The notes beneath the pieces were generated by a model. The model saw nothing but the letters and a program-made list of their open reading frames with translations, had not been told where the DNA came from and searched no databases. Shown piece after piece: positions 18,214-64,000 of a stretch of DNA of 64,000 nucleotides. Every line of letters begins with the position of its first letter. Position 1 is the first letter of the stretch. Where the stretch lies: the NCBI GenBank assembly GCA_964016885.1, contig OZ024742.1:313658001-313722000 (forward strand). The letters run 5' to 3'. Source of the DNA: Eledone cirrhosa (Eukaryota). The position numbers and the translations under genes are program-made.

Positions 18214-19793
18214 TTTGTGTGAATCTATGTGTGTTTAAAAGGAAGGGGATGGTGAAAAAATAGCAAAACAGCAACTGGTGTTCCATTTTCTATGCTGTGT
18301 GTGAGTGTATGTGTATGTGTGTGTGTTTCTGTAAATGTGTATGTTTGTGTAAATATATGTGTGTGTGTTTGTATGAATGTATGTGTGTGTTTGTGTAAAT
18401 GTATGTATGTGTAAATGTATGTATGTGTTTGTATGAATATATGTCTGTATTTTCGTAAGTGTATCTGTGTTTACAAGTTTTTGTTTATATATTCATACAT
18501 ATAAATATCTACATATGCACACACATGCACACACATATACACATACACATCAGTGTGTTGAAATAAATCCTAGTATTATAAAACAATTATGTGTAACCCA
18601 TAAGATAAATACAGATATGTGTAACACAACATAATTACAGATATGTGTAACACAACATGTAGATATGTGTAACCCATAACATAAATACAGATATATGTAA
18701 CACAACATAAATACAGTTATGCGTAATCCATAACATAAATACAGATTATGTAACCCATAACATAAATATAGATATGTGTAACACAACATTAATACAGATA
18801 TGTGTAACCCATAACATAAATACAGATATGTCACACAACATAAATACAGATATGTGTAACACAACATAAATACAGATATGTGTCACACAACATAAATACA
18901 GATATGTGTAACACAACTTAAATACAGATATGTGTAACACAACATAAATACAGATATGTGTAACACAACATAAATACAGATATGTGTAACACAACATAAA
19001 TACAGATATGTGTAACCCATAACATAAATACAGATATGTGTAACCCATAACATAAATACAGATATGTGTAACCCATAACATAAATATAGATATGTGAAAC
19101 CCATAACATAAATATAGATATGTGTAACCCATAACATAAATACAGATATGTGTAACACAACATAAATACAGATATGTGTAACACAACATAAATACAGATA
19201 TGTGTAACACAACATAAATACAGATATGTGTAACACAACATAAATACAGATTTGCGTAACATAACATAAATACAGATATGTGTAACCCATAACATAAATA
19301 TAGATATGTGTAACCCATAACATAAATACAGATATGTGTAACACAACATAAATACAGATATGTGTAACACAACATAAATACAGATATGTGTAACACAACA
19401 TAAATACAGATATGCGTAACATAACATAAATACAGATATGTGTAACCCATAACATAAATACAGATATGTGTAACCCATAACATAAATACAGATATGTGTA
19501 ACCCATAACATAAATATAGATATGTGTAACACAACATGAATACAGATATGTGTAACCCATAACATAAATACAGACATGTGTCACACAACATAAATACAGA
19601 TATGTGTAACACAACAAATACAGATATGTGTAACACAACATAAATACAGATATGTGTAACCCAACATAAATACAAATATGTGTAACCCATAACATAAATA
19701 CAGATATGTGTAACACAACATAAATACAGATATGTGTAACCCAACATAAATACAGATATGTGTAACACATGACATAAATACAGACATGTGTAA

Positions 19794-27100: not shown

Positions 27101-30100
27101 AACACAACATAAATACAGATATGTGTAACCCATAACATAAATACAGGTATGTGTAACACAACATAAATACAGATATGTGTAACCCATAACATAAATATAG
27201 ATATGTGTAACACAATATAAATATACATATGTGTAACACAATATAAATACAGATATGTGTAACAACAGAAATACAGATATGTGCAACCCATAACATAAAT
27301 ACAGATATGTGTAACACAACATAAATACAGATATGTGTAACACAACATAAATACAGATATGTGTAATCCATAACATAAATACAGATATGTGTAACTCATA
27401 ACATAAAATATAGATAAGTGTAACCCACAACATAAATACAGATATGTGTAACACAACATAAATACAGATATGTGTAACCCATGACATAAATACAGATATG
27501 TGTAACCAATAACATAAATACAGATATGTGTAACCCATAACATACATATAGATATGTGTAACACAACATAAATATAGATATGTGTAACACAACATAAATA
27601 TAGATATGTGTAACACAACATAAATACTGATATGTGTAACCCATAACATAAATACAGATATGTGTAACACAACATAAATACAGATATGTGTAACACAACA
27701 TAAATACAGATACGTGTAACCCATAACATAAATATAGATCTGTGTAACACAAGATAAATGCAGATATGTGTAATCCACAACATAAATACAGATATGTGTA
27801 ACCCATAACATAAATACAGATATGTGTAACTCATAACATAAATATAGATATGTGTAACACAACATAAATACAGATATGTGTAACACAACATAAATACAGA
27901 TATGTGTAACACAACATAAATACAGATATGTGTAACACAACATAAATACAGATATGTGTAACACATAACATAAATATAGATATGTGTAACACATGACATA
28001 AATACATATATATGTAACAAAATAACATAAATATAGATATGTGTAACACAACATAAATACAGATATGTGTAACACAACATGAATATAGATATGTGTAACC
28101 CATAACATAAATATAGATATGTGTAACACAACATAATTACAGATATGTGTAACACAACATAAATATAGATATGTGTAACACAACATAAATACAGATATGT
28201 ATAACCCATAACATAAATACAGATATGTGTAACACAACATAAATACAGATATGTGTAACACAACATAAATACAGATATGTGATACCCATGACATAAATAT
28301 TGATATGTGTAACACAAGATAAATGCAGATATGTGTAATCCACAACATAAATACAGATATGTGTAACACAACATAAATACAGATATGTGTAACCCATAAC
28401 ATAAATACAGATATGTGTAACTCATAACATAAATACAGATATGTGTAACACAACATAAATACAGATATGTGTAACCCATAACATAAATATAGATATGTGT
28501 AACACAACATAAATACAGATATGTGTAACACAACATAAATACAGATATGTGTAACACAACATAAATACAGATATGTGTAACACAACATAAATACAGATAT
28601 GTGTAACCCATAACCTAAATATAGATATGTGTAACACATGACATAAATACAGATATGTGTAACCCACAACATAAATATAGATATGTGTAACACAACATAA
28701 ATACAGATATGTGTAACACAACATAAATACAGATATGTGTAACCCATAACATAAATATAGATATGTGTAACACAACATAAATACAGATATGTGTAACACA
28801 ACATAAATATAGATATGTGTAACACAACATAAATACAGATATGTGTAACCCATAACAAATACAGATATGTGTAACACAACATAAATACAGATATATGTAA
28901 CACAACATAAATACAGATATGTGTAACACAACATAAATACAGATATGTGTAACACAATATAAATACAGATATGTGTAACACAACATAAATACAGATATGT
29001 GTAACCCATAACATAAATATAGATATGTGTAACACAACATAAATACAGATATGTGTAACCCATAACATAAACACAGATATGTGTAACTCATAACATAAAT
29101 ACAGATATGTGTAACCCATAACATAAATACAGATATGTGTAACACAAGATAAATGCAGAAATGTGTAATCCACAACATAAATACAGATATGTGTAACACA
29201 ACATAAATACAGATATGTGTAACACAACATAAATACAGATATGTGTAACACAATATAAATACAGATATGTGTAACACAACATAAATACAGATATGTGTAA
29301 CCCATAACATAAATATAGATATGTGTAACACAACATAAAAACAGATATGTGTAACCCACAACATAAATATAGATATGTGTAACACAACATAAATATAGAT
29401 ATGTGTAACACAACATAAATACAGATATGTGTAACACAAGATAAATGCAGATATGTGTAATCCACAACATAAATACAGATATGTGTAACACAACATAAAT
29501 ACAGATATGTGTAACACAACATAAATACAGATATGTGTAACACAATATAAATACAGATATGTGTAACACAACATAAATACAGATATGTGTAACCCATAAC
29601 ATAAATATAGATATGTGTAACACAACATAAATACAGATATGTGTAACCATAACAAATACAGATATGTGTTACACAACATAAATACAGATATGTGTAACAC
29701 AACATAAGTACAGATATGTGTAACCCATAACATAAATATAGATATGTGTAACACAATATAAATATAGATATGTGTAACACAATATAAATACAGATATGTG
29801 TAACAACAGAAATACAGATATGTGCAACCCATAACATAAATACAGATATGTGTAATACAACATAAATACAGATATGTGTAACACAACATAAATACAGATA
29901 TGTGTAATCCATAACATAAATACAGATATCTGTAACTCATAACATAAAATATAGATAAGTGTTACCCACAACATAAATACAGATATGTGTAACACAACAT
30001 AAATACAGATATGTGTAACACAAGATAAATGCAGATATGTGTAACCCACAACATAAATACAGATATGTGTAACACAACATAAATACAGATATGTGTAACA

Positions 30101-32648
30101 CAATATAAATACAGATATGTGTAACACAACATAAATACAGATATGTGTAACCCATAACATAAATATAGATATGTGTAACACAACATAAATACAGATATGT
30201 GTAACCATAACAAATACAGATATGTGTTACACAACATAAATACAGATATGTGTAATGCAACATAAATACAGATATGTGTAACCCATAACATAAATATAGA
30301 TATGTGTAACACAATATAAATATAGATATGTGTAACACAATATAAATACAGATATGTGTAACAACAGAAATACAGATATGTGCAACCCATAACATAAATA
30401 CAGATATGTGTAACACAACATAAATACAGATATGTGTAACACAACATAAATACAGATATGTGTAATCCATAACATAAATACAGATATCTGTAACTCATAA
30501 CATAAAATATAGATAAGTGTTACCCACAACATAAATACAGATATGTGTAACACAACATAAATACAGATATGTGTAACCCATGACATAAATACAGATATGT
30601 GTAACCCATAACATAAATACAGATATGTGTAACACAACATAAATACAGATATGTGTAACCCATAACATAAATACAGATATGTGTAACACAACATAAATAC
30701 AGATATGTGTAATCCATAACATAAATATAGATATGTGTAACACAACATAAATACAGATATGTGTAACACAACATAAATACAGATATGTGTAACACAACAT
30801 AAATACAGATATGTGTAACCTATAACATAAATATAGATATGTGTAACACATGACATAAATACAGATATGTCTAACCCATAACATAAATATAAATATGTGT
30901 AACACAACATAAATACAGATATGTGTAACACAACATAAATACAGATATGTGTAACCCATAACATAAATATAGCTATGTGTAACACAACATAAATACAGAT
31001 ATGTGTAACACAGCATAAATATAGATATGTGTAACACAACATAAATACTGATATGTGTAACCCATAACATAAATACAGATATGTGTAACACAACATAAAT
31101 ACAGATATGTGTAACACAACATAAATACAGATATGTGTAACACAACATAAATACAGATATGTGTAACCCATAACATAAATATAGATATGTGTAACACAAG
31201 ATAAATGCAGATATGTGTAACCCATAACATAAATATAGATATGTGTAACACAACATAAATACAGATATGTGTAACACAACATAAATACAGATATGTGTAA
31301 CACAACATAACTACAGATATGTGTAACACAACATAAATACAGATATGTGTAACACATAACATAAATATAGATATGTGTAACACATGACATAAATACAGAT
31401 ATGTGTAACAAAATAACATAAATATAGATACGTGTAACACAACATAAATACAGATATGTGTAACACAACATAAATACAGATGTGTAACCCATAACATAAA
31501 TATAGATATCTGTAACACAACATAAATACAGATATGTGTAACACAACATAAATATAGATATGTGTAACACAACATAAATACAGATATGTGTAACACAACA
31601 TAAATACAGATATGTGTAACACAACATAAATACATATATGTGTAACACAACATAAATACAGATATGTGTAACACAACATAAATACAGATATGTGTAACCC
31701 ATAACATAAATATAGATATGTGTAACACATGACATAAATACAGATATGTGTAACCCATAACATAAATATAGATATGTGTAACACATGACATAAATACAGA
31801 TATGTGTAACCCATAACATAAATATAGATATGTGTAACACAACATAAATACAGATATTTGTAACACAACATAAATACAGATATGTGTAACCCATAACATA
31901 AATATAGATATGTGTAACACAACATAAATACAGATATGTGTAACACAACATAAATATAGATATGTGTAACACAACATAAATACAGATATGTGTAACCCAT
32001 AACATAAATACAGATATGTGTAACACAACATAAATACAGATATGTGTAACACAACATAAATACAGATATGTGTAACACAACATAAATACAGATATGTGTA
32101 ACCCATAACATAAATATAGATATGTGTAACCCATAACATAAATACAGATATGTGTAACACAAGATAAATGCAGATATGTGTAATCCACAACATAAATACA
32201 GATATGTGTAACACAACATAAATACAGATATGTCTAACACAACATAAATACAGATATGTGTAACACAACATAAATACAGGTATGTGTAACACAACATAAA
32301 TACAGATATGTGTAACACAACATAAATACAGATATGTGTAACAACATAAATACAGATATGTGTAACACAACATAAATACAGATATGTGTAACACAACATA
32401 AATACAGATATGTGTAACACAACATAAATACAGATATGTGTAACACAACATAAATACAGATATGTGTAACACAACATAAATGCAGATATGTGTAACACAA
32501 CATAAATACAGATATGTGTAACACAACATAAATACAGATATGTGTAACACAACATAAATACAGATATGTGTAACACAACATAAATACAGATATGTATAAC
32601 ACAACATAAATACAGATATGTGTAACATAACATAAATACAGATATGTG

Positions 32649-33605
32649 CTGAAACAGCAAGCAGCAAACAGCCATAGGAAACAAGTACCACCAATCTCTG
32701 GGAGGGCCCTGTAGAAACAGTAGACAGCTTCTCCTACCTAGGTGACCGAATTAGCAACGGAGGTGGGTGTTCATAAAGTATAATAACTAGGGTAAGAACG
32801 GGACGGAAGAAGTTTAGGGAACTACTACCACTGCTAGCTGCAAAAGGCTTCTCCCTCAGAATGAAAGGCAGACTGTATGATGCGTGTATCCGAACAGCGA
32901 TGTTGCATGGTAGTGAGACCTGGGCGCTGAAGGTGGAAGACTTACGTAGATTAGAGAGAAACGAAGCCTGCATGCTCCGATGGATGTGTAACAGTAATAT
33001 ACGTGAACGACAAAGCATAAATGAATTGAGAGAGAGACTGAGCATAAGAGGAATCAAATGCTGTGTGCAGGAGAGGTGGTTGAGCTGGTATGGACATGTG
33101 ATGCGTATGAAGGATGACAGCTGCATAAAAAGGTGCAGAGCACTAGAAGTTGATGGAAACCGCGGAGTGGGGAGACTTAAGATGACCTGGGATGAGGTGA
33201 TAAAAGCCGACCTTACCCAATTACACCTCTCAAAGACAATGACACACGACCGTGACTTCTGGCGTCACGCAGTAATACAGAGTACCCGACCTCTCATGGG
33301 TACATGCTGAAGCATATAAACAATATGCCCCCACATCCCCCACCGCAAGGTGGTCGTGGAGGTGCCACGGAAAAAAGCACCCAGCCCACACTGTAAAGTG
33401 GACGTGTAGGCGCCACGAAAAAGCACCCAGCACTCACTGTAAATGAGGTTGGTGTTAGGAATGGCATCCAGCTGTAGAAATCAAGCCAGATCAGTTCCTG
33501 TATGAGCAAGCTATGGTCAGCCGACCAGACACTGCACACAACAGGACAACCCGTCTAACCCATGCTAGCGTGGAAGAATGGACGTAAAACGGTGATGATG
33601 ATGAT
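32649..33605 (+). mobile_element. RTE (sister subfamily), 5'-truncated, in the satellite
   Basis: FSYLGD and MKGRLYDACIRTAMLHGSETW; (TGA)n tail; possible TSD atgtg. Confidence 0.95.
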
Positions 33606-35732
33606 CATGTGTAACACAACATAAATACAGATATGCGTAACACAACAGAAATACAGATATGTGTAATCCACAACATAAATACAGATATGTGTTCCACAAC
33701 ATAAATACAGATATGTGTAACACAACATAAATACAGATATGTGTAACCCATAATATAAATACAGATATGTGTAAACCCATAACATAAATATAGATATGTG
33801 TAACACAACATAAATACAGATATGTGTAACCCATAACATAAATATAGATATGTGTAACACAACATAAATACAGATATGTGTAACACAACATAAATATAGA
33901 TATGTGTAACACAACATAAATATAGATATGTGTAACACAACATAAATACAGATATGTGTAACATAACATAAATATAGATATGTGTAACATAACATAAATA
34001 CAGATATGTGTAACACAACATAAACACAGATATCTGTAACACAACATAAATATAGATATGTGTAACATAACATAAATACAGATATGTGTAACACAACATA
34101 AATACAGATATGTGTAACACAACATAAATATAGATATGTGTAACACAACATAAATACAGATATGTGTAACACAACATAAATATAGATATGTGTAACACAA
34201 CATAAATATAGATATGTGTAACATAACATAAATACAGATGTGTAACACAACATAAATACAGATATGTGTAACACAACATAAATATAGATATGTGTAACAC
34301 AACATAAATATAGATATGTGTAACCCATAACATAAATACAGATATGTGTAACCCATAACATAAATACAGATATGTGTAACCCATAACATAAATACAGATA
34401 TGTGTAACCCATAACATAAATACAGATATGTGTAACCCATAACATAAATACAGATATGTGTAACCCATAACATAAATACAGATATGTGTAACCCATAACG
34501 TAAATACAGATATGTGTAACCCATAACATAAATACAGATATGTGTAACCCATAACATAAATACAGATATGCGTAACACAACAGAAATACAGATATGTGTA
34601 ACCCATAACATAAATACAGATATGTGTAATACAACATAAATACAGATATGTGTAACATAACATAAATACAGATATGTGTAACCCATAACATAAATACAGA
34701 TATGTGTAATACAACATAAATACAGATATGTGTAACATAACATAAATACAGATATGTGTAACCCATAACATAAATACAGATATGTGTAATACAACATAAA
34801 TACAGATATGTGTAACATAACATAAATACAGATATGTGTAACCCATAACATAAATACAGATATGTGTAACATAACATAAATACAGATATGTGTAACCCAT
34901 AACATAAATACAGATATGTGTAATACAACATAAATACAGATATGTGTAACATAACATAAATACAGATATGTGTAACCCATAACATAAATACAGATATGTG
35001 TAATACAACATAAATACAGATATGTGTAACATAACATAAATACAGATATGTGTAACCCATAACATAAATACAGATATGTGTAACATAACATAAATACAGA
35101 TATGTGTAACCCATAACATAAATACAGATATGTGTAATACAACATAAATACAGATATGTGTAACATAACATAAATACAGATATGTGTAACCCATAACATA
35201 AATACAGATATGTGTAATACAACATAAATACAGATATGTGTAACATAACATAAATACAGATATGTGTAACCCATAACATAAATACAGATATGTGTAACAT
35301 AACATAAATACAGATATGTGTAACCCATAACATAAATACAGATATGTGTAATACAACATAAATACAGATATGTGTAACATAACATAAATACAGATATGTG
35401 TAACACAACATAAATACAGATATGTGTAACCCACAACATAAATACAGATATGTGTAACACATGACATAAATACAGATATGTGCACACCCACATCATCACA
35501 TGTCCCTTCCACATCACTACCCCCCACACCACCCCTCCACATCACCACACGTCCCCCCACACCACACTTCCCCTCCACATCACCACACAACCCCTCCACC
35601 TCATCACATGTTCCCTGCACATCATCACTTATAACTACCTGACCCCCCATCAAGCAGGGTCAGTTACTCTCTCTAACTCCCCGCCCTCCTCTTGTCATTT
35701 ACACATGATATACCTGTTGGGTATATTTAGCA

Positions 35733-49152: not shown

Positions 49153-49672
49153 ATTACATATTAGGCATGGATAAAAATGATTGGAGATGATATGGAAAGC
49201 CAGGCTTTGGTGAAGAGGGAATGCAGAGAATAGGGCAAATTGGAGATGCTTTAGCAGAGAAAATGGCCTTCAAAACACTTGTATATATTATGCATCACAT
49301 TATAAGTTAATTTATAAATTACATTCTATGTACAATTTATATATATAATAAAAAACGGTTAAATGGATTCATAAATCAAGCTTCCTAAAAATTGGTCATA
49401 AAATCTTCTCTTGTAAATTATAACAAATTTAAAAAAAGAATCATTATATAATGTTTGCTAATGCAGTATATCACCATTTTTCCTGGGGCATAGTGAGAGG
49501 GATGGTAGGAGGAGAGAGGTGTGGGTTAGGCCGGTGAAGTTTGAAAGGCTATACATAGATAAATAAGTAGATAGATAGATAGACATATTAGGATAAATAG
49601 ATTAGGATAAATAGATTGATGGTTGATAAATAAATATAATACAGAGATAGAAAATCATATATAGATAGATAG

Positions 49673-51857
49673 ATTTCTTTATTAGCCACAAGGGCGCAGA
49701 AGAAAAGGGGACAAAACAAAGACACATGCCGGGGATTTTACATACAATCGTGTAAAAATATGAAACAAACAAATATAACAATCGAAATCCCCAATAAGGT
49801 GGTGCGTCAAAAATGGGTTGTTTAATACCCCGTAAATAGAACAACCCTCAACTTCAGGAGCATGTTGTGCAAGTGCTCCTTTCTTCTTTTTGCTCTCTTA
49901 TTCAACCTACAGGCTTATAAACAGAGAAGGCCCAATCACTCGGGCCATTTTCGCTTCATTCACCCACCTTTCAGTAAATTTACTGGGGTGCAGTGCCTCT
50001 CTCTCCACTCTGATTCTCCTTCTAAAGTGATATCTAAAGAAGGGAATGAGTTGTCCGGAGAGAAAGGCATCTGTCCTCAGTCCTCTCAATCTCGTCCACC
50101 ATATAACCTCTTTCACCATAGCCACTGTACAGAGGAAAACCGCCTCTCTTTCGTTTTTGAAGGAGGTTGGTGGTTTGATCCCTACTATGGACTCGGCAGT
50201 CAACTGGATTTGTCCCATACGCGACAGCAGTTGTTCTGCATAATTCCACAGGTTGGTTACGCCCGGGCAGTGTACAATTGCGTGCAAGACAGTTTCAATG
50301 TCCTGCCTGCATCTTGGACACGTCCTCTTCGAAGGATCCGTGCCGGGGCATCTGTGCCTGTAGATCTTGTCACAAACTGGTAGAGCTCCTCGGTAGTACT
50401 GCCAGGCCAGGGACCCCTGGAAATTGTCCATAGGTCCCGGGCGGAAAGTCCTACCAAACAAACTGGTGAGTTCGTCGTTCTCGACGCCTAGAGTCTCTCC
50501 GAGCACGTCGTCGCCCTTGTGACGTACTAACCCTCTATAGAATGTCGAAGTGGAGTCTCCACTGATTGCCGTGCCCGCTTGACAGAGGACTGTGAGTGCC
50601 TGAGCGCATTCAATGTGCCAGGCACCCATCTTCTTTGGTCTCCGCTTGACCCAGGACTGCAGCTCCATCAGCGAGACAAATTGCGGGAAGGCCTGTCTCA
50701 CAAACGGTGCCCACACCAGTTGGGGGTCGGTGAGGAATACCTGTAGATGCCATAGCCTCAGCGCATGCTTGCGCATCACCAGTGGGGCCTGCTTCTTCCA
50801 AAGGAACTGGAAGGGCATGCATTCCATCTTGGTGAGGTGTTCACGGGGACAAGGCACGACGGTCAAGCGGTAGTAGATGACGGACACTATGAAAGTGTTC
50901 GCCACCTCCGCTCGACCTTTCGAGCAATTTCACCGGTTCGTCCAGCGTCCGACAACACTGTCGGACGGCATCGGTTTGCCTCTCCACGTTCTGAGTTGCA
51001 AACTGACAGACTTGTCCGGGTTCAGTTTTGCTCCTGTGAGCTTTTCGTATTCCTGCAGTAAGTTGCCGATCACCCCGATTTTCGAGGTTTCCGACATGAT
51101 TACTGTCACATCATCGGCATAAGCCAACACCGCTTTCCGCAGTCCCGGTTCCAACGGGATGTCTTGCAGCAGCTCCAACTTCTGCAGTAGTGGCACTAGA
51201 GTCAGTACGTACAGAATGGAGGAGAGAGGACATCCCTGTTGGATGGAACGTGTGATTGCGAACGGCTCCGATAGGTGGCCATTCACCTTGACCATCGAGC
51301 AGATGTTGGTGTGCATTGCAGTGATCCAGCCTCCAAAAACGGGTCCGAAACCGGCCGCCTTGAGAACCGCTTCCAAGTAGCGATCGTTGACCCTATCGAA
51401 CGCCTTAGACTGATCTAAATTGATCAGAGCCCCACTGAAGCCGGGTTTACATCCCACCCTCTCTATGATGTATCGCATGAGGTGGAGGTTGTCGTGTATG
51501 GACCTGGTCGGGATTGCAAACGTTTGCGCTTTCCCTACCATGTTCTCGACGACAAGCGCCAGCCTCGTTGCCAACACCTTGGCCAAAATCTTTAACTCTG
51601 TGTTGAGCAGAGTTATAGGGCTAAAGTTGCTTAGTTCGTCCCCCTTGTCCTCGTCTTTCCTGATCAGCGTTACTACGCCCCTGCCTGCAGAACTGGGAAT
51701 TCTCCCGTTCTGCTGCCAGTTGCAGTAGACGGCCTCGAGGATGCCAGAGAACAAGTCTGGCATGCCTATGTAAAACTCATGGGGTAGACCATCTAGACCG
51801 GGTGATTTGCGTTTCCCGCAGCAGCCCAGAGCATCCTGTATCTCAGTGGCTGTGATT
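49673..51857 (-). mobile_element. Tx1-clade LINE copy A (older subfamily, 5'-truncated, frameshifted)
   Basis: RT motifs LDQSKAFD, QGCPLS, YADD; C-terminal CPRC..ETVLHAIVHC; AATAAA then (CTAT)n. Confidence 0.93.
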
Positions 51858-52190
51858 GATAGTTAGATAGTTAGAGAAATAGTTTAATGATAAATAGGCA
51901 GAAGAAAAGGACATAGATAGATGGAAAGATGAACAGATAGACTAAAAGATGGGTTGATAGATTGACAGATTGACTGACAGACAGACAAAAAATGTAGATT
52001 AGGATAGATAGATAAACAAATATAATATAGAGATAGAAAATCTAATAATATAGATAAGTTGATAGTTAGGTAGATAGATGATAGGTAGGCAGATAAAAAA
52101 GAACACAGACAGATAGATATAGGCAGACAGACATAGTGATAGATAGATGGATGGACAGTCAGTTAGACAAATATAAATATAGATAGATTA

Positions 52191-52707
52191 ATTTTCTTTA
52201 TTAACCACAAGGGCACAAAAGAAAGGGACAAATACAAATGGGGAGTTTACATACAGGTATATGAAAATAAAACTATTAATACAATAACAAATAACAATTG
52301 ATATCCCCAATAGTGAGGAAGTGTTACACAGGGGTTATACACACTCCGAAAAAATGTACAACCCTCATCTCCAGGAGCACTAAGAGTGAGTACTCCCTTC
52401 TTCTCTTCCTCTTTTTCCTCAACCTACAGTCTTATATAGAGAGAAGGCCCAACCACTCGGGCCATCTTTGCCACATTCACCCACCTTTTATAAAGCTAGC
52501 TGGGGTACAGCATATCTCTCTCCATCCTGATTCTTCTTCCAAAATGATATTTGAAAAAACGAATCAGTTGCTCGCCGGAGAGAAAGGTGTCTGACCTCAG
52601 CTCTTTTAACCTTGTCCACCATATTACCTCTTTCACCATAGCCATAACACATAGGAAAACCGCCTCTCCCTCGTTTTTGAAGGAGGGTGGCGGTTTGATC
52701 ATGACAA
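52191..52707 (-). mobile_element. Tx1 copy B (distinct subfamily, 3' fragment)
   Basis: VKEVIWWTRLK homology; own 3'UTR; GATA repeats on both flanks. Confidence 0.9.
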
Positions 52708-52808
52708 AGATAGATTGGCAGATAGAGAAACAGATAGATTATGTAGAGAGACAGACAGACACATATATATAGACATATAGGTAGATAGATATAGATATAC
52801 ATAGATAT

Positions 52809-53042
52809 GTTTCTTTTATTTGCCACCAGGGCATCAAAAGTGGGACAAGTACAATGGGGGGAGTTTACAAAACAAGGCGTCCTCAATAGGGAGGAGGCAA
52901 TAACAATATATAAAAATAAAATAAAATATAACAAAAAATAAAATTTATAACAAAGTCCTCAATAGAGAGGAGGCGCCTTGGGGGGGTCGCACACACACCC
53001 CCGAAAAAAAGTATGCAACCCTTTTCCTCGGGAGCACAGAGA
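52809..53042 (-). mobile_element. Tx1 copy C (3'UTR only, young subfamily)
   Basis: Near-identical to the 3'UTRs of copies D, E and F. Confidence 0.9.
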
Positions 53043-53241
53043 TGGAGAGCTAGACAGACAGATATATAGATAGATGGAGAGCCAGACAGACAGATATATA
53101 GATAGATGGAGAGCCAGACAGACAGATATATAGATAGATGGAGAGCCAGACAGACAGACAGACAGATATATAGATAGATGGAGAGCTAGACAGACAGATA
53201 TATAGATAGATGGAGAGCTAGACAGACAGATATATAGATAT
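53043..53241. repeat. 32/36-bp GATA/GACA minisatellite
   Basis: Unit AGATAGATGGAGAGC(C/T)AGACAGACAGATATAT. Confidence 0.95.
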
Positions 53242-53556
53242 GTTTCTTTTATTTGCCACCAGGGCATCAAAAGTGGGACAAGTACAAAGGGGGAGTTTAC
53301 AAAACAAGGCGTGCTCAATAGGGAGGAGGCAATAACAATATATAAAAAAAATAAAATATAACAAAAAATAGAATTATAACAAAATCCTCAATAGAGGATT
53401 TTGTTATAAAATATAACAAAAAATAAAATTTATAACAAAATCCTCAATAGAGAGGAGGCGCCTTGGGGGGTCGCACACACCCCCGAAAAAAGTGTGCAAC
53501 CCTTTTCCTCAGGAGCACAGAGAGGGGGTGCTCCCTCGTTCCTTCCTCTTTTCCAC

Positions 53557-56500
53557 CTACAGGCTTATGTAAAGAGAAGGCCCATTCACACGGGCCATTC
53601 TCGCCACTTTCACCCACCTTTCATAAAAACGACTGGGGTGGAGCACCTCTCTCTCCATCCTGATCCTTCTTCCGAAATGATATCGGAAGAAACGGACCAG
53701 TTGTTGGCCAGAGAGAAAGGTGCCTGACCTCAGTCCTTTCAGACGCGTCCACCATACAACTTCTTTCACCATGGCTATTACGCACAGAAACACCGCCTCT
53801 GCTTCATCTTTGAAGGGGGGAGGCGGCTTGATTATTACAATAGACTCGGTGGTCAACCGGATCGGTCCCACCCTTGACAGCAGTTGTTCGACATAGCCCC
53901 ACAGATCGGCTACGCCCGAGCAGTGTACCAATGCGTGTGCAACGGTTTCCTCGTCGCACACGCATCTGGGACAGATCTTTTTGGCGGGGTCCCTACCCGG
54001 GCGCCCGTGTCTGTAGAGCTTTTCTCGAACGGGTAGAGCCCCTCGGTAGCACTGCCAGGCCAGGGACTTCTGAAAGTTGTCCATAGGTCCTGGGCTGAAT
54101 GTCCTACCGAACAGGCTGGCCAGTTCGTCCTCCTCCATGTCTAGGGCTTCTCCGAGGGCGTCGTCGCACCTGCTGCGTACCAGCCCTCTATAGAATGTTG
54201 CGGTGGAGTCTCCACTGATAACCGGATCCGCCTGCCAGAGGGCGGTGAGCGCCTGGGCACACTCAGTGTGCCAGGCGCCCAGTTTTCTCGGTCTTTGCTT
54301 GACCCAGGATTGCAGCTCGGTGAGTGAGACGAGACTGGGAAAGGTTCGTCTCACAAACGAGGCCCACACCGGTTGACCGGTGAGGAATACATAGAGGTGC
54401 CGTAGCCTTAATGCGTGTTTACGCATCATTAGCCACGGCATCCCCAGCCCTCCTTTCGAAGGGTGTTGACAGCAGATGGATCTCCTCACCATAGGAGCCC
54501 GCCTCTTCCAAAGGAATTGGAAGAGCGCGCGCTCCATCTTGGTGAGGGTTTCCCTTGGGCAGGACACTACGGTCAGGCGGTAGTAGATGACGGACGCTAT
54601 ATAGGTGTTCGCCACCTCCGCCCGACCTTTCAGGGATAGTTTGCAACTGGCCCACTTCTGGGTCAGTGCAAACACCCTGTTCGCAACCTCCGCCCAGTTT
54701 TTCTCCACCTGGAGGTCCGGTCCAAACCAGACCCCGAGCAACTTCACCGGGCCCTCCGTCCAGCGTCCGACGACGCCATCGGAGGGCATTGGTCTGCCCC
54801 TCCACGTGCCGAGTTGCAAACCGATCGACTTGTCCCGTTTCAGCTTAGCCCCTGTGAACCTTTCGTACTCCTCCAGTAAGGTGCCGACCGCCTCGATTTC
54901 GGAGGCCATCGACACCATTACTGTCACGTCATCGGCGTAGGCCGACACCGCTTTCCGCAATCCCGGTTCCAACGGGATGCCCTGCAACAACTCCAACTTC
55001 CGCAGTAGTGGCTCGAGAGTCAACACATACAGAAGGGAGGAGAGAGGGCACCCTTGTCGGATGGACCGCGCGATTTTGAACGGCTCCGAGAGGTAGCCGT
55101 TCACCTTGACCCTAGAGCAGATGCGGCTGATGTGCATAGCAGTGATCCAGCCCCTGAAAACGGGTCCGAAGCCTGCCGCCGCTAGCACCGCATCTAGGTA
55201 ACCATGGTCGACCCTATCGAACGCCTTAGATTGATCCAAGTTGATAGAGCCCCACCAAAGCCGGGTTCGTTCCCAACCCTCTCTATGATGTATCGCATGA
55301 GGTGGAGGTTGTCATGGATGGACCTGGACGGGATAGCGCATGTCTGCGCATCTCCCACCAGGTTGCCCACGACAAGCGCCAACCTCTTTGCTAGCACCTT
55401 GGCCAAAATCTGTAACTCTGTATTTAGCAGAGTTATGGGCCTGAAGTTACTTATTTCGTCCCCCTTGTTCTCGTCCTTCCTCACTAGCGTGACTACGCCC
55501 TTGGTCACAGTACAGGGAATTCTCCCGTTCTGTTGCCAGTTGCAGTAGACCGCCTTGAGGAGCTCGGGGAACAAGTCCGGCATAGCTAGATATAATTCGT
55601 AAGGAAGACCATCGAGACCCGGGGATTTGCGTTTGCCGCATTGGCCCAGCACGTCCTCTATCTCAGCGACCGAAATCGGCTCCTCGCAGGACTTCGCCTC
55701 CCTGTCCGAGAGACGCGGCAGGCCGTCGAGGTATGGACCGAAGTCCACATTCCCAACTGGCTCCCCGCCCCTCCCGAACAGTCGGGCAAAGTGCCTTTGA
55801 AAGACCTCACACATCTTCTTAGGCTCAAGAATCGCCCGTCCATCCAGGTCTCGCAAAGACCGGATAGTGGATTTAGTTCCACTGTTGGCCTCTGTCACGC
55901 GGGCCCAGCTAACAGCTTTGGTCCCCTCGTTCCCTAGAGCACGTATTTTACTTCGGACAACGCAGCCTTCGTACTTCGCGTTGAAAAACTGGCTCAAAGC
56001 CGTTCTCGACGCTAGCACTCTGGCCACGTCGCCGCTTCTAATTGCCTCTTCTACTCTATCTATTAGCTCCCTTTCCTTCCTATTCCTATCCGCAGCTAGA
56101 ACCTTACTAAATTCTATCGAGACTACTCTAATCTCTCTCTTTAGAGATACCCACCACCTGCTGTTGACGATCGCTCCAGTCAACCGTTCCTTAATTAACG
56201 TACTAATCCGATTCCTGTAGGCTCTACTTGCCGGCAAGGACAAGTTGAGCTTCCAGTAACCGGGGCCCTGTCTATGCGTTCTATCAAGGTTGACCATGCA
56301 GGTCACCAACTTGTGGTCTGAATAGCCAACCATGAGCATTTCTGGACAACTTAAAAAGTCCCTGTCCTTATTTCTAACTAAAAATCTATCTAGGTACGAC
56401 CTAGATGATCCGCTGCGATTTGACCAAGACCAGGTTGGCATCGTCGGAAAATCTAGTCGAAATCTATCGGCCAGGTCAAATCGGCCGAGTAACCCCTTGA

Positions 56501-56993
56501 GGCTGTTGCACCCCTCTCTATCGGGACATGCCCCTGCATAGTCCCAACGTGCATCCAGGATACCATTCCAATCCCCCACTAAAAGCAGGGAACGGGACGT
56601 CCCTAGAAAAGACTCCAGACGCTGGAAAAAGTCGGGCCGCTCTGTCCCAAAAGGGGCATATGCGGCTATCAGCCTAAAGGCTCTACCTTCACCACTGCCA
56701 AGGTCCAGCACCACCAGTCGACCCCCTGGGTCCAAGTGAACTATCTGTGTTGCAAGGCCCATATGTTTTTGCAGCAGAACGACAACCCCACCCCCACCTC
56801 CGGGCTGACAGAGAGATGCGTGCATCTCAAAGTCGTCAAAGGTGGGGGCTAGCTGTCGCATGCTGCTGATCCGGGCCTCGCAGATAACCATCACATTTAT
56901 AGATTGTGACCTGAGGTCATTTAGAAGCATTGCTTGCTTCCAAGACGAGCCCAGGCCACGCGCATTTAGACACCCTACTCTTAGCACAGCCAT
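53557..56993 (-). CDS. Tx1 ORF2 (APE endonuclease, RT, C-terminal zinc finger); one 1-nt deletion at 55245/55246, ~1145 aa if repaired
   Basis: LNARGL, GDWN, SYLDRF, SDH, GYWKLN, KSPGLDGLPYE, YADD; copy E has ttgatcagagc where D has ttgatagagc. Confidence 0.93.
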
Positions 56994-57332
56994 GTTGGTG
57001 GCAAAGAGAAAAGGCACTTACCTCTCTGCGTCCCGGGAAACGGGCCGCTCAATTTCCATGCTGGTTGGGGATGGGTTGTTGGGTGGGGTGGTGGTTTGTG
57101 GAAGTGAAGGGGCATCGGTGTGTTGTGGGGTTGGGGTGTTTGTGGTTGAGTGGGTGTCTGGGTGGGGTGGGGGGTGAAATTTTTTAGGAGGACGCGGTTG
57201 ATTGGTTTGGCGCAGGGGGGGGGGGGGGCCACGTCCTCCGTGAAATTTATTTTCAGTGTTTTGTACAAGTGCATTGGGACTTTTATCATTTTTAAATGAG
57301 GTAGTCCCACAGCAGTTATAAAGTTTGGCCCT

Positions 57333-58856
57333 TCAGTTTGGACCGAAGGGTTTGCTGAAATTGTTTTCCGTAATTCTTTGTTGTCTGTGTTCATGTATGT
57401 GTATTGTAAGGTCTTTTTTTCTGTAGCAGTTAGTGTTGTGTGACAGGGAGGGGTGGTTTGTGTGTAGTTTGTGTTCTCTTTGGGGGGGGTTAAAGTTAAC
57501 ATGTGTGTCTGTGGTGCGTCTCCTCTTCTTTCTTTTTACTTGTTGGAAGGGATCTTTTTCGTCTTGCGACGAAAGAGGTTCGTCTTCCTTGTTGGGTGGG
57601 AGGGGTATGTTTTCTGGTAGTGTTTGCGGTGTGCGTGTTTTTGTATTTGTTTTGGATGGGGAGGGATTGGGTGGGACAGTATTCTGTGTTATTTTTTCAC
57701 GCGTTTGTTGTTGTTGTTGTTGTGGTGGTGGTGGTGGGGTTGTTGGTTTTTGTTGTTGTTGTGGTTGTTTTTGTTGTTGTAGTTGGGTTGGTGTTGGTAG
57801 CAGTGTTTTTTTCTGTGTGAGCTGGGGACAGGCAGCCCTCAGGTGACCTCTATTGCCACAGAGGTAACAGGAGGGACGCCTACCCTCCACAATAATGTTG
57901 AGGTGGGTACGGTCATCCAGCATGACGCGCTCAGGGATTTGGGCGATGCGTTCTGGCCTTATTTGGGTCAGAACTTCGATGCTCGTTCCACTGAACGCGT
58001 CGCCGGATGCCTTCCCTATTGAAATGAGGTTGTCCTCGTCTAAATTGAGGAAACCGGTTAGTAACCACCAGTAGTTTATGTTTGGGGTGATGGTGGTTAT
58101 CCATATCCTCTGGGTTTTTTTACCTATGTAGGTGGGGAAGAAGGTGTAGTGTGTGGACCGAATTGGCGACACAGAGTATTTTTTTGCCGCCAATTCGTCT
58201 TTCATCAATATGGATAAACTCCCATAGAGTTTATCCTTTTGTATAAAAGTGATATCTCTCATCGCGTCTTTCAAGACTAACTGAATTTCCGCTTGAGATG
58301 GTTGCGCTGGTTTCTTTGTTTTATTTAAAATTGTTCGGAATACGACAGTTCGTAATTCCGTCTGTCTTTTTAGCTCCGGAGGTGAATGTATAGAAAACGA
58401 ACCGTTTTCGCCAAAAGACACATATTTCTTGGCTTTTTCCAGCATTTCTTTTGCTTTTGAAACATCTTCCAGCACATAAGCGACTGATAATTTAGCCGTT
58501 TGTGCAAAAGATATTTTGTTTTCGCTTTGGATTTTAGTATTGTTTTGTTTCTCGTCGTTTGAGTTGTTTTCATCTTTGTTGTTGTTATTGTCTTTCTCGT
58601 TTGGTGTGTGGATACTTGTGACGTTTGTGTTGTTGTTTTTGTTGTCTTTATTGTTGCTGTTGTTGTCGTTGTTGTTGTTGTTTTCAAATTCTTGTGTAGT
58701 TGTGGCTACATCTAGTGGTCGGTCAACAGGTGAAGACAATTCTTCCTCTCTCTGACCTCTGTCTTTGGCATCTGCTGCTGTGACAGTGGTAGGGGGAAGC
58801 TGTGAGTATGACTTCCCCTTTCCTTCTTTGATTGATGGTGAAGATGCTTCAGCCAT
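57333..58856 (-). CDS. Tx1 ORF1 (nucleic-acid-binding, CX2CX4HX4C knuckle); probably extends to 56981
   Basis: aaaATGG start; EGRRPSCYLCGNRGHLRAAC; basic KRKKRRR. Confidence 0.88.
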   Translation of the reverse strand: MAEASSPSIKEGKGKSYSQLPPTTVTAADAKDRGQREEELSSPVDRPLDVATTTQEFENNNNNDNNSNNKDNKNNNTNVTSIHTPNEKDNNNNKDENNSNDEKQNNTKIQSENKISFAQTAKLSVAYVLEDVSKAKEMLEKAKKYVSFGENGSFSIHSPPELKRQTELRTVVFRTILNKTKKPAQPSQAEIQLVLKDAMRDITFIQKDKLYGSLSILMKDELAAKKYSVSPIRSTHYTFFPTYIGKKTQRIWITTITPNINYWWLLTGFLNLDEDNLISIGKASGDAFSGTSIEVLTQIRPERIAQIPERVMLDDRTHLNIIVEGRRPSCYLCGNRGHLRAACPQLTQKKTLLPTPTQLQQQKQPQQQQKPTTPPPPPQQQQQQTREKITQNTVPPNPSPSKTNTKTRTPQTLPENIPLPPNKEDEPLSSQDEKDPFQQVKRKKRRRTTDTHVNFNPPQREHKLHTNHPSLSHNTNCYRKKDLTIHIHEHRQQRITENNFSKPFGPN

Positions 58857-59079
58857 TTTTCTCAAAATAGGGTTTTTCGAAGTTTTTCGAAAGATAAAAT
58901 GTTCACAATACTATTTCGCCCAAAGGCGCAGAATATTTTGAGAGACCGACCAGATCAAAATTTGACCTGGCAGTCCCTCTACAAAATGGTACAAAAATGA
59001 AAGTTTACAGTTTACAATTTTCGTATGAATTTAAACAAAAACTTACCGAGCGAGCTCAGCACATGTGTCCATCATAAAA

Positions 59080-59800
59080 GACAGACATATAGATAGATGG
59101 AGAGCCAGACAGACAGACAGACAGATATATAGATAGATGGAGAGCTAGACAGACAGATATATAGATAGATGGAGAGCTAGACAGACAGACAGACAGATAT
59201 ATAGATAGATGGAGAGCCAGACAGACAGATATATAGATAGATGGAGAGCCAGACAGACAGACAGACAGATATATAGATAGATGGAGAGCTAGACAGACAG
59301 ATATATAGATAGATGGAGAGCTAGACAGACAGACAGACAGACAGATATATAGATAGATGGAGAGCCAGACAGACAGATATATAGATAGATGGAGAGCCAG
59401 ACAGACAGATATATAGATAGATGGAGAGCCAGACAGACAGATATATAGATAGATGGAGAGCCAGACAGACAGACAGACAGATATATAGATAGATGGAGAG
59501 CCAGACAGACAGATATATAGATAGATGGAGAGCCAGACAGACAGATATATAGATAGATGGAGAGCCAGACAGACAGACAGACAGATATATAGATAGATGG
59601 AGAGCCAGACAGACAGATATATAGATAGATGGAGAGCCAGACAGACAGATATATAGATAGATGGAGAGCTAGACAGACAGATATATAGATAGATGGAGAG
59701 CTAGACAGACAGACAGACAGATATATAGATAGATGGAGAGCTAGACAGACAGATATATAGATAGATGGAGAGCCAGACAGACAGACAGATATATAGATAT
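59080..59800. repeat. 32/36-bp GATA/GACA minisatellite
   Basis: About 21 tandem units. Confidence 0.97.
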
Positions 59801-62496
59801 GTTTCTTTTATTTGCCACCAGGGCATCAAAAGTGGGACAAGTACAATGGGGGGAGTTTACACAAAAAGCGTCCTCAATAAGGAGGAGGCAATAACAAAAT
59901 CATCATCATCAACGTTTAACGTCCGTGTTCCACGCTTGCATGGGTTTGGACGGGGGTAGTCCCACTTGAGGCAAGAGTGATTGTCTTGCTCGCATAGGAC
60001 TGTCTGGCAGGTTTTCTACAGTTGGATGCCCTTCCTAACACCAACCACATTTACAGTGTGGGTCTGGGAGGTTTTTACCGTGTTGCCTACACGGCCACAT
60101 TACAGCGTGGACTGTGTGTTTTTTTGTCGTGACACCTACACGATCTCATTTGTTTCGGCCTCGATGGCGCGGCACCAACATAACTTTACATAGAACGGGG
60201 TGGTGTGGATCGGGTGGGGGTGGTGGGACGGGGTGTATTTTGTTAGAGATGCCTACTGGCTGGAGTAGGTTTTACTATATATTTAGGTAAGGCGGGTCTT
60301 CTCTGTTACTGAGTACCGCCAAAGGTCTCGGTCCAGTGACATTGTCTTGGAGAGGTGTAAGTGTGTGATGTCGGAGTTTATCAGCTCGTCCCAGGTTTTT
60401 CTAGGTCTGCCTATTCCGTGACTACCGTCTATCTTTATTGCCCTGCACTTTGTTATACCAAATATAAAAATAAAATAAAATATAACAAAAAATAAAATTT
60501 ATAACAAAATCCTCAATAGAGAGGAGGCGCCTTGGGGGTCGCACACACCCCCGAAAAAAGTGTGCAACCCTTTTCCTCAGGAGCACAGAGAGGGGGTGCT
60601 ACCTCGTTCCTTCCTCTTTTCCACCTACAGGCTTATGTAAAGAGAAGGCCCATTCACACGGGCCATTCTCGCCACTTTCACCCACCTTTCATAAAAACGA
60701 CTGGGGTGGAGCACCTCTCTCTCCATCCTGATCCTTCTTCCGAAATGATATCGGAAGAAACGGACCAGTTGTTGGCCAGAGAGAAAGGTGCCTGACCTCA
60801 GTCCTTTCAGACGCGTCCACCATACAACCTCTTTCGCCATGGCTATTACGCACAGAAACACCGCCTCTGCTTCATCTTTGAAGGGGGGAGGCGGCTTTAT
60901 CGTTACAATAGACTCGGTGGTCAACCGGATCGGTCCCACCCTTGACAGCAGTTGTTCGACATAGCCCCACAGATCGGCTACGCCCGAGCAGTGTACTAAT
61001 GCGTGTGCAACGGTTTCCTCGTCGCACACGCATCTGGGACAGATCTTTTTGGCGGGGTCCCTACCCGGGCGCCCGTGTCTGTAGAGCCTTTCTCGAACGG
61101 GTAAAGCCCCTCGGTAGCACTGCCAGGCCAGGGACTTCTGGAAGTTGTCCATAGGTCCCGGGCTGAATGTCCTACCGAACAGGCTGGCCAGTTCGTCCTC
61201 CTCCATGTCTAGGGCTTCTCCGAGGGCGTCGTCGCACCTGCTGCATACCAGCCCTCTATAGAATGTTGTGGTGGAGTCTCCACTGATAACCGGATCCGCC
61301 TGCCAGAGGGCGGTGAGCGCCTGGGCACACTCAGTTTCCCAGGCGCCCAGTTTTCTCGGTCTTTGCTTGACCCAGGATTGCAGCTCGGTGAGTGAGATGA
61401 GTCTGGGAAAGGTTCGTCTCACAAACGAGGCCCACACCGGTTGACTGGCGAGGAATACGTAGAGGTGCCGTAGCCTTAATGCGTGTTTACGCATCATTAG
61501 CCACGGCATCCCCAGCCCTCCTTTCGAAGGGTGTTGACAGCAGATGGATCTCCTCACCATAGGAGCCCGCCTCTTCCAAAGGAATTGGAAGAGTGCGCGC
61601 TCCATCTTGGTGAGGGTTTCCCTTGGGCAGGGCACTACAGTCAGGCGGTAGTAGATGACGGACGCTATGTAGGTGTTCGCCACCTCCGCCCGACCTTTCA
61701 GGGATAGTTTGCAACTGGCCCACTTCTGGGTCAGTGCAAACACCCTGTTCGTAACCTCCGCCCAGTTTTTCTCCACTTGGAGGTCCGGTCCGAACCAGAC
61801 CCCGAGCAACTTCACCGGGCCCTCCGTCCAGCGTCCGACGACGCCATCGGAGAGCATCGGTCTGCCCCTCCACGTGCCGAGTTGCAAACCGATCGACTTG
61901 TCCCGGTTCAGCTTAGCCCCTGTGAACCTTTCGTACTCCTCCAGTAAGGTGCCGACCGCCTCGATTTCGGAGGCCGTCGACACCATTACTGTCACGTCAT
62001 CGGCGTAGGCCGACACCACTTTCCGCAATCCCGGTTCCAAAGGGATGCCCTGCAACAACTCCAACTTCCGCAGTAGTGGCTCGAGAGTCAACACATACAG
62101 AAGGGAGGAGAGAGGGCACCCTTGTTGGATGGACCGCGCGATTTTGAACGGCTCCGAGAGGTAACCGTTCACCTTGACCCTAGAGCAGATGCGGCTGCTG
62201 TGCATAGCAGTGATCCAGCCCCTGAAAACGGGTCCGAAGCCTGCCGCCGCTAGCACCGCATCCAGGTAACCATGGTCAACCCCATCGAACGCCTTAGATT
62301 GATCCAAGTTGATCAGAGCCCCACCAAAGCCGGGTTCGTTCCCAACCCTCTCTATGATGTATCGCATGAGGTGGAGGTTGTCATGGATGGACCTGGACGG
62401 GATAGCGCATGTCTGCGCATCTCCCACCAGGTTGCCCACGACAAGCGCCAACCTCTTTGCTAGCACCTTGGCCAAAATCTGTAACTCTGTATTTAG
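59801..62496 (-). mobile_element. Tx1 copy E (5'-truncated, open RT frame), 3'UTR split by an RTE
   Basis: 616-aa uninterrupted ORF 60625-62475, near-identical to D. Confidence 0.96.
59901..60458 (-). mobile_element. RTE 3' fragment nested in the 3'UTR of Tx1 copy E
   Basis: (CAT)n tail; short TSD aaat (59897-59900 / 60460-60463). Confidence 0.93.
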
Positions 62497-63156
62497 ATAG
62501 ATGGAGAGCCAGACAGACAGATATATAGATAGATGGAGAGCCAGACAGACAGATATATAGATAGATGGAGAGCTAGACAGACAGACAGACAGATATATAG
62601 ATAGATGGAGAGACAGACAGACAGATATATAGATAGATGGAGAGCCAGACAGACAGACAGACAGATATATAGATAGATGGAGAGACAGACAGACAGACAG
62701 ATATATAGATAGATGGAGAGCTAGACAGACAGACAGACATATAGATAGATGGAGAGACAGACAGACAGATATATAGATAGATGGAGAGCCAGACAGACAG
62801 ACAGATATATAGATAGATGGAGAGACAGACAGACAGACAGATATATAGATAGATGGAGAGCTAGACAGACAGATATATAGATAGATGGAGAGCTAGACAG
62901 ACAGATATATAGATAGATGGAGAGCTAGACAGACAGATATATAGATAGATGGAGAGCCAGACAGACAGACAGATATATAGATAGATGGAGAGACAGACAG
63001 ACAGATATATAGATAGATGGAGAGCCAGACAGACAGATATATAGATAGATGGAGAGCTAGACAGACAGACAGACAGACAGATAGATAGATGGAGAGCCAG
63101 ATAGACAGACATATAGATAGATGGAGAGCTAGACAGACATATAGATAGATAGATAT
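62497..63156. repeat. 32/36-bp GATA/GACA minisatellite
   Basis: About 19 tandem units. Confidence 0.97.
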
Positions 63157-64000
63157 ATTTCTTTTATTTGCCACTAGGGCATCAAAAGTGGGACAAGTAC
63201 AAAGGGGGGAGTTTACACAAAAAGGCGTCCTCAATAAGGAGGAGGCAATAACAAAATATAAAAATAAAATAAGATATAACAAAAAATAAAATTTTTAACA
63301 AAATCCTCAATAGAGAGGAGGCGCCTTGGGGGGTTGCACACACCCCCGAAAAAAGTGTGCAACCCTTCTCCTCAGGAGCACAGAGAAGGGGTGCTCCCTT
63401 GGTCTTTCATCTTCCTCACCTATAGTCTGATGTAGAGTGAAGGCCCATTCACACGGGCCATTCTCGCCACTTTCACCCATCTTTCATAGAAACGGCTGGG
63501 GTGCAGCACCTCTCTCTCCATCCTGATCCTTCTTCCGAAATGATATCGGAAGAAACGGACCAGTTGTTGGCCAGAGAGAAAGGTGCCCGACCTCAGTCCT
63601 TTCAGACGCGTCCACCATACAACCTCTTTCGCCATGGCTATTACGCACAGAAACACCGCCTCTGCTTCATCTTTGAAGGGGGGAGGCGGCTTGATCATTA
63701 CAATAGACTCGGTGGTCAACCGGATCGGTCCCACCCTTGACAGCAGTTGTTCGACATAGCCCCACAGATCGGCTACGCCCGAGCAGTGTACTAATGCGTG
63801 TGCAACGGTTTCCTCGTCGCACACGCATCTGGGACAGATCTTTTTGGCGGGGTCCCTACCCGGGCGCCCGTGTCTGTAGAGCCTTTCTCGAACGGGTAAA
63901 GCCCCTCGGTAGCACTGCCAGGCCAGGGACTTCTGGAAGTTGTCCATAGGTCCCGGGCTGAATGTCCTACCGAAAAGGCTGGCCAGTTCGTCCTCCTCCA
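63157..64000 (-). mobile_element. Tx1 copy F (continues past window end)
   Basis: 3'UTR plus ORF2 C-terminus 63420-64000. Confidence 0.95.

What the first reader, a model, noticed from the sequence alone, without database searches (positions are those of the whole stretch)
49550..64000. Tx1 retrotransposon lineage apparently targeting GATA/GACA repeats, piled up as a six-copy co-oriented array
Seen: six Tx1 copies (A-F) from at least three subfamilies with different 3'UTRs, all on the minus strand, with different 5' ends (51857, 52707, 53042, 59079, 62496). They are therefore independent insertions rather than one tandem duplication. Every 3' end reads AATAAA-(A)GAAA then within a few bases (TCTA)-type repeat, with no poly(A). 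Copies D and E join the 32-bp minisatellite at the same register (gatatatagatat|gtttc), and C and F at a similar tagatat| junction. No Tx1 occurs in the other 49 kb, although that region has many TA, CA, CAC and CAA repeats. Known: Tx1-clade families can be sequence-specific (Kibi for (TC)n, Koshi for (TTC)n, Keno for U2, Dewa for tRNA spacers). Inference: a GATA-specific APE endonuclease conserved across subfamilies; I do not know of a described one.
Basis: partly seen in the sequence, partly recalled or inferred. Interest (0 to 1): 0.85.

Follow-up and report, generated by a model that had tools for sequence, protein, structure and literature searches.

The report
GATA-repeat-targeting octopus retrotransposon lineage
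This stack of jumping-gene copies belongs to a young family whose thousands of copies sit, one way round and at one fixed position, inside GATA repeats, while a sister family in the same genome sits in TAA repeats, which likely makes the pair a natural test of how such elements choose where to insert.

Summary
The core claim holds genome-wide. Six co-oriented Tx1-like APE/RT LINE copies lie at 49674-64000. Of 3,863 exact 3' termini of the C/D/E/F-type family, 3,258 (84%) have AGAT in one register, 421 have ATAT and 1 has AGAC; background AGAT is 0.5%. GATA repeats also flank 27 of 29 full-length 5' ends on the same strand, and six unique 12-19-bp target-site duplications show that the flank is target, not tail. 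An RTE control scored 0 of 29. Two corrections. GACA is not a target. Copy F is not fully independent: it has its own 3' part, but its 5' ~880 bp and the following 660-bp minisatellite duplicate copy E. New: a sister lineage in the same genome (ORF2 about 66% identical, same 3' terminus) sits in (TAA)n (27 of 29). Likely mechanism: endonuclease nick at ATAGAT^A and target-primed reverse transcription, probably primed on read-through RNA; this was not assayed. Microsatellite-targeting Tx1 elements are known (Kibi, Koshi). I found no GATA- or TAA-targeting Tx1 in the papers searched, but Repbase and Dfam could not be checked. Verdict: new variant of a known kind.

The parts
49674..51857 (-). Copy A: 5'-truncated Tx1-like LINE, A subfamily; RT fragment and zf-RVT, with a frameshift and an internal deletion
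51858..52192 (.). Degenerate GATA-rich spacer (target DNA between A and B)
   Evidence: sequence
52193..52707 (-). Copy B: 515-bp 3' fragment, B subfamily
52708..52806 (.). Degenerate GATA-rich spacer ending in AGAT at C's 3' junction
52807..53042 (-). Copy C: 3'UTR-only fragment of the D family
53043..53239 (.). 32-36-bp GATA/GACA minisatellite, first block
53240..59078 (-). Copy D: full-length element, 5.84 kb, no poly(A)
57333..58856 (-). ORF1 of D with a CCHC zinc knuckle; shorter than in copy L041; no Pfam hit
53557..56993 (-). ORF2 of D (APE, RT, zf-RVT), broken by a 1-bp deletion near 55245
56262..56993 (-). APE endonuclease domain; catalytic residues conserved; predicted L1-endonuclease fold
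59079..59798 (.). Minisatellite, second block; ends in AGAT at E's 3' junction
59799..62496 (-). Copy E: D family, 5'-truncated at D position 2185
59887..60460 (-). 5'-truncated RTE LINE fragment inserted in E's 3'UTR
62497..63154 (.). Minisatellite, third block; duplicated again behind F, beyond the window
63155..64000 (-). Copy F: own 3' part (a different 3'UTR variant); continues to G000:C3:313723290, where its 5' ~880 bp equal those of E

Best explanation
This is a recently expanded Tx1-like APE/RT LINE lineage whose copies sit in (GATA)n in one orientation and one register, most likely because its endonuclease nicks the GATA strand at ATAGAT^A and the freed end primes reverse transcription. 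Shown: the site consensus (ATAGAT|AGATAGAT), the secondary use of (TA)n, duplications of 12-19 bp at unique sites, and the absence of a poly(A) or added tail. Inferred: the RNA reads through the AATAAA signal into flanking UCUA repeats and pairs with the nicked 3' end, so copying starts at the first element base and skips any poly(A). Each duplication regenerates GATA units on both sides, so later copies of any subfamily would land next to earlier ones head to tail, building stacks like this one. Copy F is likely a fresh insertion of about 1.3 kb whose cDNA was completed on neighbouring copy E, duplicating about 1.55 kb. The nick position is uncertain by one base.
For: Whole genome: 3,258 of 3,863 termini have AGAT in exact register, 421 ATAT, 1 AGAC; AGAT background is 0.52% in 200 kb of arbitrary stretches, where perfect TA arrays cover 20,160 bp and GATA arrays 428 bp. 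Three subfamilies each give 25 of 29. Copies chosen by protein give 24 of 30; all distinct ends in hand give 128 of 148, none with TATCTATC on that strand. Full-length 5' ends: GATAGATA within 30 nt in 27 of 29, opposite strand 0 of 29. RTE control 0 of 29. Six strict duplications of 12, 13, 15, 18, 18 and 19 bp end exactly at the junction, and the next target base is A in 6 of 6. L018 is inserted in another copy's ORF2 at a single ATAGAT^AGAG word, with no added bases. Loci with two or more ends: 19 co-oriented, 4 mixed. APE catalytic residues are invariant and the model (pLDDT 91.9) matches human L1 endonuclease best, E 1e-19. A sister clade with a diverged APE uses (TAA)n. Tx1L endonuclease nicks almost only its own target in vitro (PMC1950540, passages). 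Target-like RNA 3' ends raise accuracy in SART1 and R1Bm (PMC7265360, passages).
Against: No biochemical or RNA data were obtained. 16% of termini are not AGAT, so this is a strong preference, not a strict one. Among 101 copies with a called 5' end only 56 had GATAGATA within 30 nt; 14 of the 101 were false ends caused by a deletion in my reference copy A, giving 56 of 87 without them. Duplications cannot be measured inside perfect repeats, and some sites show none (L018, L029). The GATA/TAA split is one phylogenetic event with 37 fixed APE differences, so it cannot assign specificity to the endonuclease or to any residue.
Confidence: 0.72

Rival explanations
1. The endonuclease is only loosely AT^A-specific, and the choice of GATA or TAA is made at priming: read-through RNA (UCUA or AUU repeats copied from the donor's flank) must pair with the nicked strand, so an element inherits its target from the site it sits in.
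For: No poly(A) and a precise 3' junction in both sister lineages. Both junctions can be read as a T^A step. One-mismatch ATAT sites are tolerated at 11%. Precedent for RNA-target annealing in SART1 and R1Bm (PMC7265360 passages).
Against: The consensus continues on the far side of the nick (AGATAGAT in 13-19 of 20 per position, repeat-inflated rows included), which primer pairing alone would not read. None of the 29 TAA-family ends checked had GATA and target tracks the RT clade, although 421 D-family copies sit in TA sites and could seed a switch. Tx1L endonuclease is sequence-specific alone.
Confidence: 0.2
2. (TCTA)n is an element-encoded 3' tail added at insertion, like the CAT-type tail of the RTE family here, and sites are random.
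For: 3' ends abut TCTA repeats; the RTE family in this genome does carry a repeat tail.
Against: The same-strand repeat flanks 5' ends at unrelated truncation points. Unique duplications show no added bases. Copies in TA or unique sites have no TCTA.
Confidence: 0.02
3. Insertion is random, and the pattern comes from later tandem duplication or from selective retention in repeats.
For: E/F is a local duplication and L048 holds repeated copies with one 5' end.
Against: The register is exact to the base in 3,258 copies across the genome, including copies only 0.34% diverged; most 5' ends differ.
Confidence: 0.03
4. For copy F only: the E-like 5' half arose by unequal crossing over or gene conversion, or is an assembly join of two haplotypes, and was not formed during the insertion itself.
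For: Near-perfect 1.55-kb direct repeat in a minisatellite-rich region.
Against: Unequal crossing over should leave a donor copy of F's 3' type behind the last minisatellite; none lies in the next 19 kb. The duplication ends exactly at F's 3' junction register.
Confidence: 0.3

Closest known systems
Kibi ((TC)n) and Koshi ((TTC)n), fish Tx1-clade elements; crocodilian Tx1 families in (TTCC)n/(TTTC)n
   Same: APE-type LINE of Tx1 type inserted in a microsatellite (PMC4494074 section 15 and passages; PMC3812793 passages).
   Different: Target is (GATA)n, with a (TAA)n sister lineage; the host is an octopod-like invertebrate. No labelled Kibi or Koshi sequence was available to test kinship.
Keno (U2 snRNA-targeting Tx1) and Xenopus Tx1L
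   Same: RT region 37-40% identical to elements lying next to U2 or U1 genes in metagenome contigs; Tx1L nicks before AGTT, here before AGAT.
   Different: Separate long branch in the quick trees. The hairpin loop is two residues longer than in the LR1 chimera, hence L1-length, against eleven residues in Tx1L.
Waldo ((ACAY)n), Mino ((AC)n), Dong ((TAA)n), Togen ((TG)n)
   Same: Microsatellite-specific non-LTR retrotransposons.
   Different: Other clades: R1 for Waldo and Mino, R4 for Dong (clade labels partly recalled), NeSL-related for Togen. The TAA sister found here has a Tx1-like APE ORF2, so it would be convergent with Dong.
Human LINE-1
   Same: APE-RT architecture and endonuclease fold; duplications of similar length (recalled).
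   Different: L1 uses TTTT/AA and a poly(A) tail; this family has no tail and a repeat target.

Membership tests
L1 group / Tx1 clade | ORF2 with N-terminal APE and RT | tested here: met
   Pfam Exo_endo_phos, RVT_1, zf-RVT; best PDB hit L1 ORF2p, E 7e-47; fold match to L1 endonuclease
L1 group / Tx1 clade | Separate ORF1 with CCHC zinc knuckle (feature recalled) | tested here: met
   CCHC motif in ORF1 of L041, L035 and the TAA sisters
L1 group / Tx1 clade | RT nests among named Tx1 references | tested here: inconclusive
   A hit named 'Transposon TX1 uncharacterized 149 kDa protein' at 31%; RT 37-40% to U2/U1-adjacent elements; quick, unrooted trees without labelled references place it as its own branch
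L1 group / Tx1 clade | Target-sequence preference (more than 20% of flanks, the criterion in PMC4494074) | tested here: met
   84% AGAT in register; criterion read
Kibi / Koshi | Target (TC)n or (TTC)n | tested here: not met
   128 of 148 ends AGAT, 2 AGAG
Kibi / Koshi | RT clusters with Kibi/Koshi | not testable with these tools
   No labelled sequences were returned
Keno | Inserted in U2 snRNA genes | tested here: not met
   Flanks are GATA or TA repeats; U2-adjacent elements fall on another branch
Sequence-specific APE elements | Isolated endonuclease cleaves the target selectively | not testable with these tools
   Needs a nicking assay

The most novel reading that the evidence does not exclude
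An octopod Tx1-like lineage has split into microsatellite-specific sister clades (GATA and TAA) in which the target is partly RNA-programmed: each element transcribes through into the repeat it sits in and uses that RNA to prime at the same repeat elsewhere, so changing the read-through sequence would retarget it.
Probability: 0.17. Interest if true: 0.85.

Novelty: new variant of a known kind. Interest (0 to 1): 0.6.

Why it matters
How APE-type retrotransposons recognise and switch targets is described as poorly understood (PMC3812793). Here two abundant sister lineages in one genome, about 66% identical in ORF2 and sharing a 3' terminus, use different repeats. One has many intact ORF2 copies (47 of the 150 listed hits have frames of 1146 aa or more, my count). 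Domain swaps between them could separate endonuclease recognition from RNA-primer pairing. The family also explains co-oriented LINE stacks and shows that thousands of GATA loci in this genome are interrupted. A GATA-specific element could be a starting point for repeat-targeted gene insertion tools.

Tried and rejected
GACA as target: 1 of 3,863. Element-encoded tail: rejected. The metagenome scan returned 46 loci, mostly 24-37% relatives (a few short segments higher); none had three or more TCTA/TAGA units, and the 40-45% unnamed relatives could not be tied to DNA, so their targets are unknown. Cluster look-ups gave names only for Argonauta hians and Patella proteins; no Kibi/Koshi/Keno/Dewa label. 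The careful tree did not finish; both protein trees are quick trees. In one search some rows were pieced from several tblastn segments and can mix neighbouring copies (for example L048). The first duplication search was inflated by repeats (25-52-bp values), so only the strict one is used for lengths. Sequencing runs: no RNA holder listed; no reads were laid, so empty alleles, expression and RNA 3' ends remain untested. Earlier findings: none. Literature searches found no GATA- or TAA-targeting Tx1. Kojima and Fujiwara 2004 was seen only as cited; the supplements of PMC4494074 were unreadable and its Fig. 3 target labels are not held; Repbase and Dfam were not available.

Full report
Observation. 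The window lies in a 3.0-Gb genome (G000:C3:313658001-313722000). The nearest named proteins are from Argonauta hians (64-67% identity), so an octopod host is likely. Six 3' termini of one LINE type lie on the minus strand at 49674, 52193, 52810, 53243, 59802 and 63158, and nothing related lies in the first 49 kb. Copy D is full length, with an ORF1 carrying a CCHC knuckle and an ORF2 with APE, RT and zf-RVT domains, broken by a 1-bp deletion. A and B are 76-82% identical to D. E carries an RTE 3' fragment in its 3'UTR. No copy has poly(A).

Target, 3' side. Written on the GATA strand, a junction reads target-AGAT, three subfamily-specific bases starting with A, then TTTC(T)TTTATT. Whole-genome exact counts for the terminus of C, D, E and F gave 3,863 ends: 3,258 with AGAT in that register, 421 with ATAT and 1 with AGAC. 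In 200 kb taken at 20 arbitrary places, AGAT precedes 0.52% of positions, and perfect TA arrays cover 47 times more bases than GATA arrays. The best 29 non-self hits of each of the D, A and B 3'UTRs gave 25, 25 and 25 AGAT. Thirty copies picked by protein gave 24. All 148 distinct ends then in hand gave 128 AGAT and 10 ATAT. Twenty-nine copies of the RTE family from the same window had no GATA repeat within 40 nt.

Target, 5' side and duplications. Of 29 full-length 5' ends, 27 have GATAGATA within 30 nt on the same strand and none on the other. Among copies with a called 5' end the figure was 56 of 101; 14 rows were false ends at a deletion in my reference, which gives 56 of 87. A strict search for non-periodic duplicated words found six duplications of 12-19 bp that end exactly at the junction, with A next in the target each time. 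One copy sits inside another's ORF2 at a lone ATAGAT^AGAG with nothing added (L018). The flank is therefore pre-existing target and not a tail. Of loci with two or more ends, 19 were co-oriented and 4 mixed, so stacks are usual for this family.

Correction on independence. F continues past the window and stops at the same base as E. E and F share nine variants absent from 19 other copies, have no substitution over D positions 1300-2180, but differ in the 3' 1.3 kb, where F's 3'UTR matches another variant. The minisatellite behind F equals the one behind E at 659 of 661 positions and ends in the register of F's junction. The simplest reading, which is inferred, is a new insertion whose cDNA was finished on E, duplicating about 1.55 kb. 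Crossing over or an assembly join is not excluded. D groups apart from E and F in the copy tree.

A sister lineage with another target. One arbitrary stretch (L176) held a diverged relative next to (AAT)n. Of its 29 best relatives, 27 have AATAATAA at the 3' end and none GATA; 9 of 14 called 5' ends have it too. A shared terminal 20-mer occurs 16,822 times. Among its first 30 places on contig 1, 17 of 20 AA/GG/GA-type ends had AATAAT and 7 of 10 AG-type ends had AGAT. Near-complete TAA copies are 64-67% identical to the D-family ORF2. In a quick RT tree the GATA copies form one clade (SH-aLRT 98; 23 rows, two with ATAT flanks) and the TAA copies another (94; 14 rows) within a group (99) that also holds the Argonauta protein. 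The APE domains differ at 37 fixed columns (13 versus 14 sequences), among them position 194 in the predicted hairpin loop, the loop studied for target selectivity in L1 (PMC1950540, passages). One split cannot assign cause.

Mechanism. Shown: site consensus, orientation, duplications, no tail, intact catalytic residues, L1-endonuclease fold of the model, and recent spread (median divergence 0.34% among 30 protein-selected copies, a selection that favours young ones). From established knowledge: target-primed reverse transcription, with target choice mainly set by the endonuclease (PMC4494074, passages). Inferred: nick at AGAT^A (one-base uncertainty), priming on read-through UCUA RNA to explain the missing poly(A) (precedent in PMC7265360, passages), and stacking because each duplication renews the target. 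I put 0.72 on endonuclease-led choice and 0.2 on RNA-led choice.

Comparison and novelty. It works like Kibi and Koshi but fails their target test. Tx1 membership is met on architecture and targeting, and inconclusive on phylogeny, because no labelled reference was available; elements next to U2 and U1 genes are 37-40% identical in RT and lie on other branches. Papers seen: PMC4494074 (passages, section 15; supplements unreadable), PMC3812793, PMC4640811, PMC5035012, PMC1950540 and PMC7265360 (passages), PMC13282606 (part 1 of 3, term search, one supplement). They list TC, TTC, TTCC/TTTC, ACAY, AC, TAA (Dong) and TG targets, not GATA. PMC13282606 counts 13 recently active L1-Tx1 families in Octopus vulgaris and its main text has no occurrence of 'target' or 'GATA'. 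Searches found no description. Repbase and Dfam may hold one. Verdict: real, a new variant of a known kind; interest 0.6.

Noticed in passing
L176:1626-5700; L327-L339 (G000:C1): Sister Tx1-like lineage inserted in (TAA)n, also forming head-to-tail stacks about 6 kb apart; at least two 3'UTR types.
   Followed up: yes
L048 (G000:C2:372389500-372399499): Several copies with the same 5' truncation (D position 1346), some at 1,443-bp spacing: tandem duplication of element plus GATA array.
   Followed up: partly
L198:9202-9356; L196 5' end; L193:4675-4885; L197:5815-5977: Metagenome Tx1-like elements next to U1 (L198 by Rfam; L196 by eye only) and U2 genes (L193, L197). Keno targets U2; a U1-adjacent APE element may merit a look, since PMC4640811 lists only Dada-U1 for U1.
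   Followed up: partly
L142-L170; window 20150-21215, 59887-60460: Young RTE family with a (CAT)n-type tail whose 3' ends often abut (TA)n-rich sequence; preference not quantified.
   Followed up: no
window 18588-35482: About 15 kb of 26-bp satellite interrupted by RTE fragments.
   Followed up: no
window 15776-15875: Degenerate (GATA)n array with no Tx1 copy: an unoccupied potential target.
   Followed up: no
P0003-P0061: Unnamed 40-45% relatives in clusters of up to 732 members on long contigs form the sister group of the octopod lineage; host and target unknown.
   Followed up: partly
L038, L044, L045, L047: Copies with a D-type 3' half and a more diverged 5' half (APE about 88% identical): recombinant subfamily that keeps the GATA target.
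   Followed up: no
G000:C12:17058757-17458519: Six hits with the same 456-aa frame at about 60-kb spacing: probably a large tandem segmental repeat.
   Followed up: no
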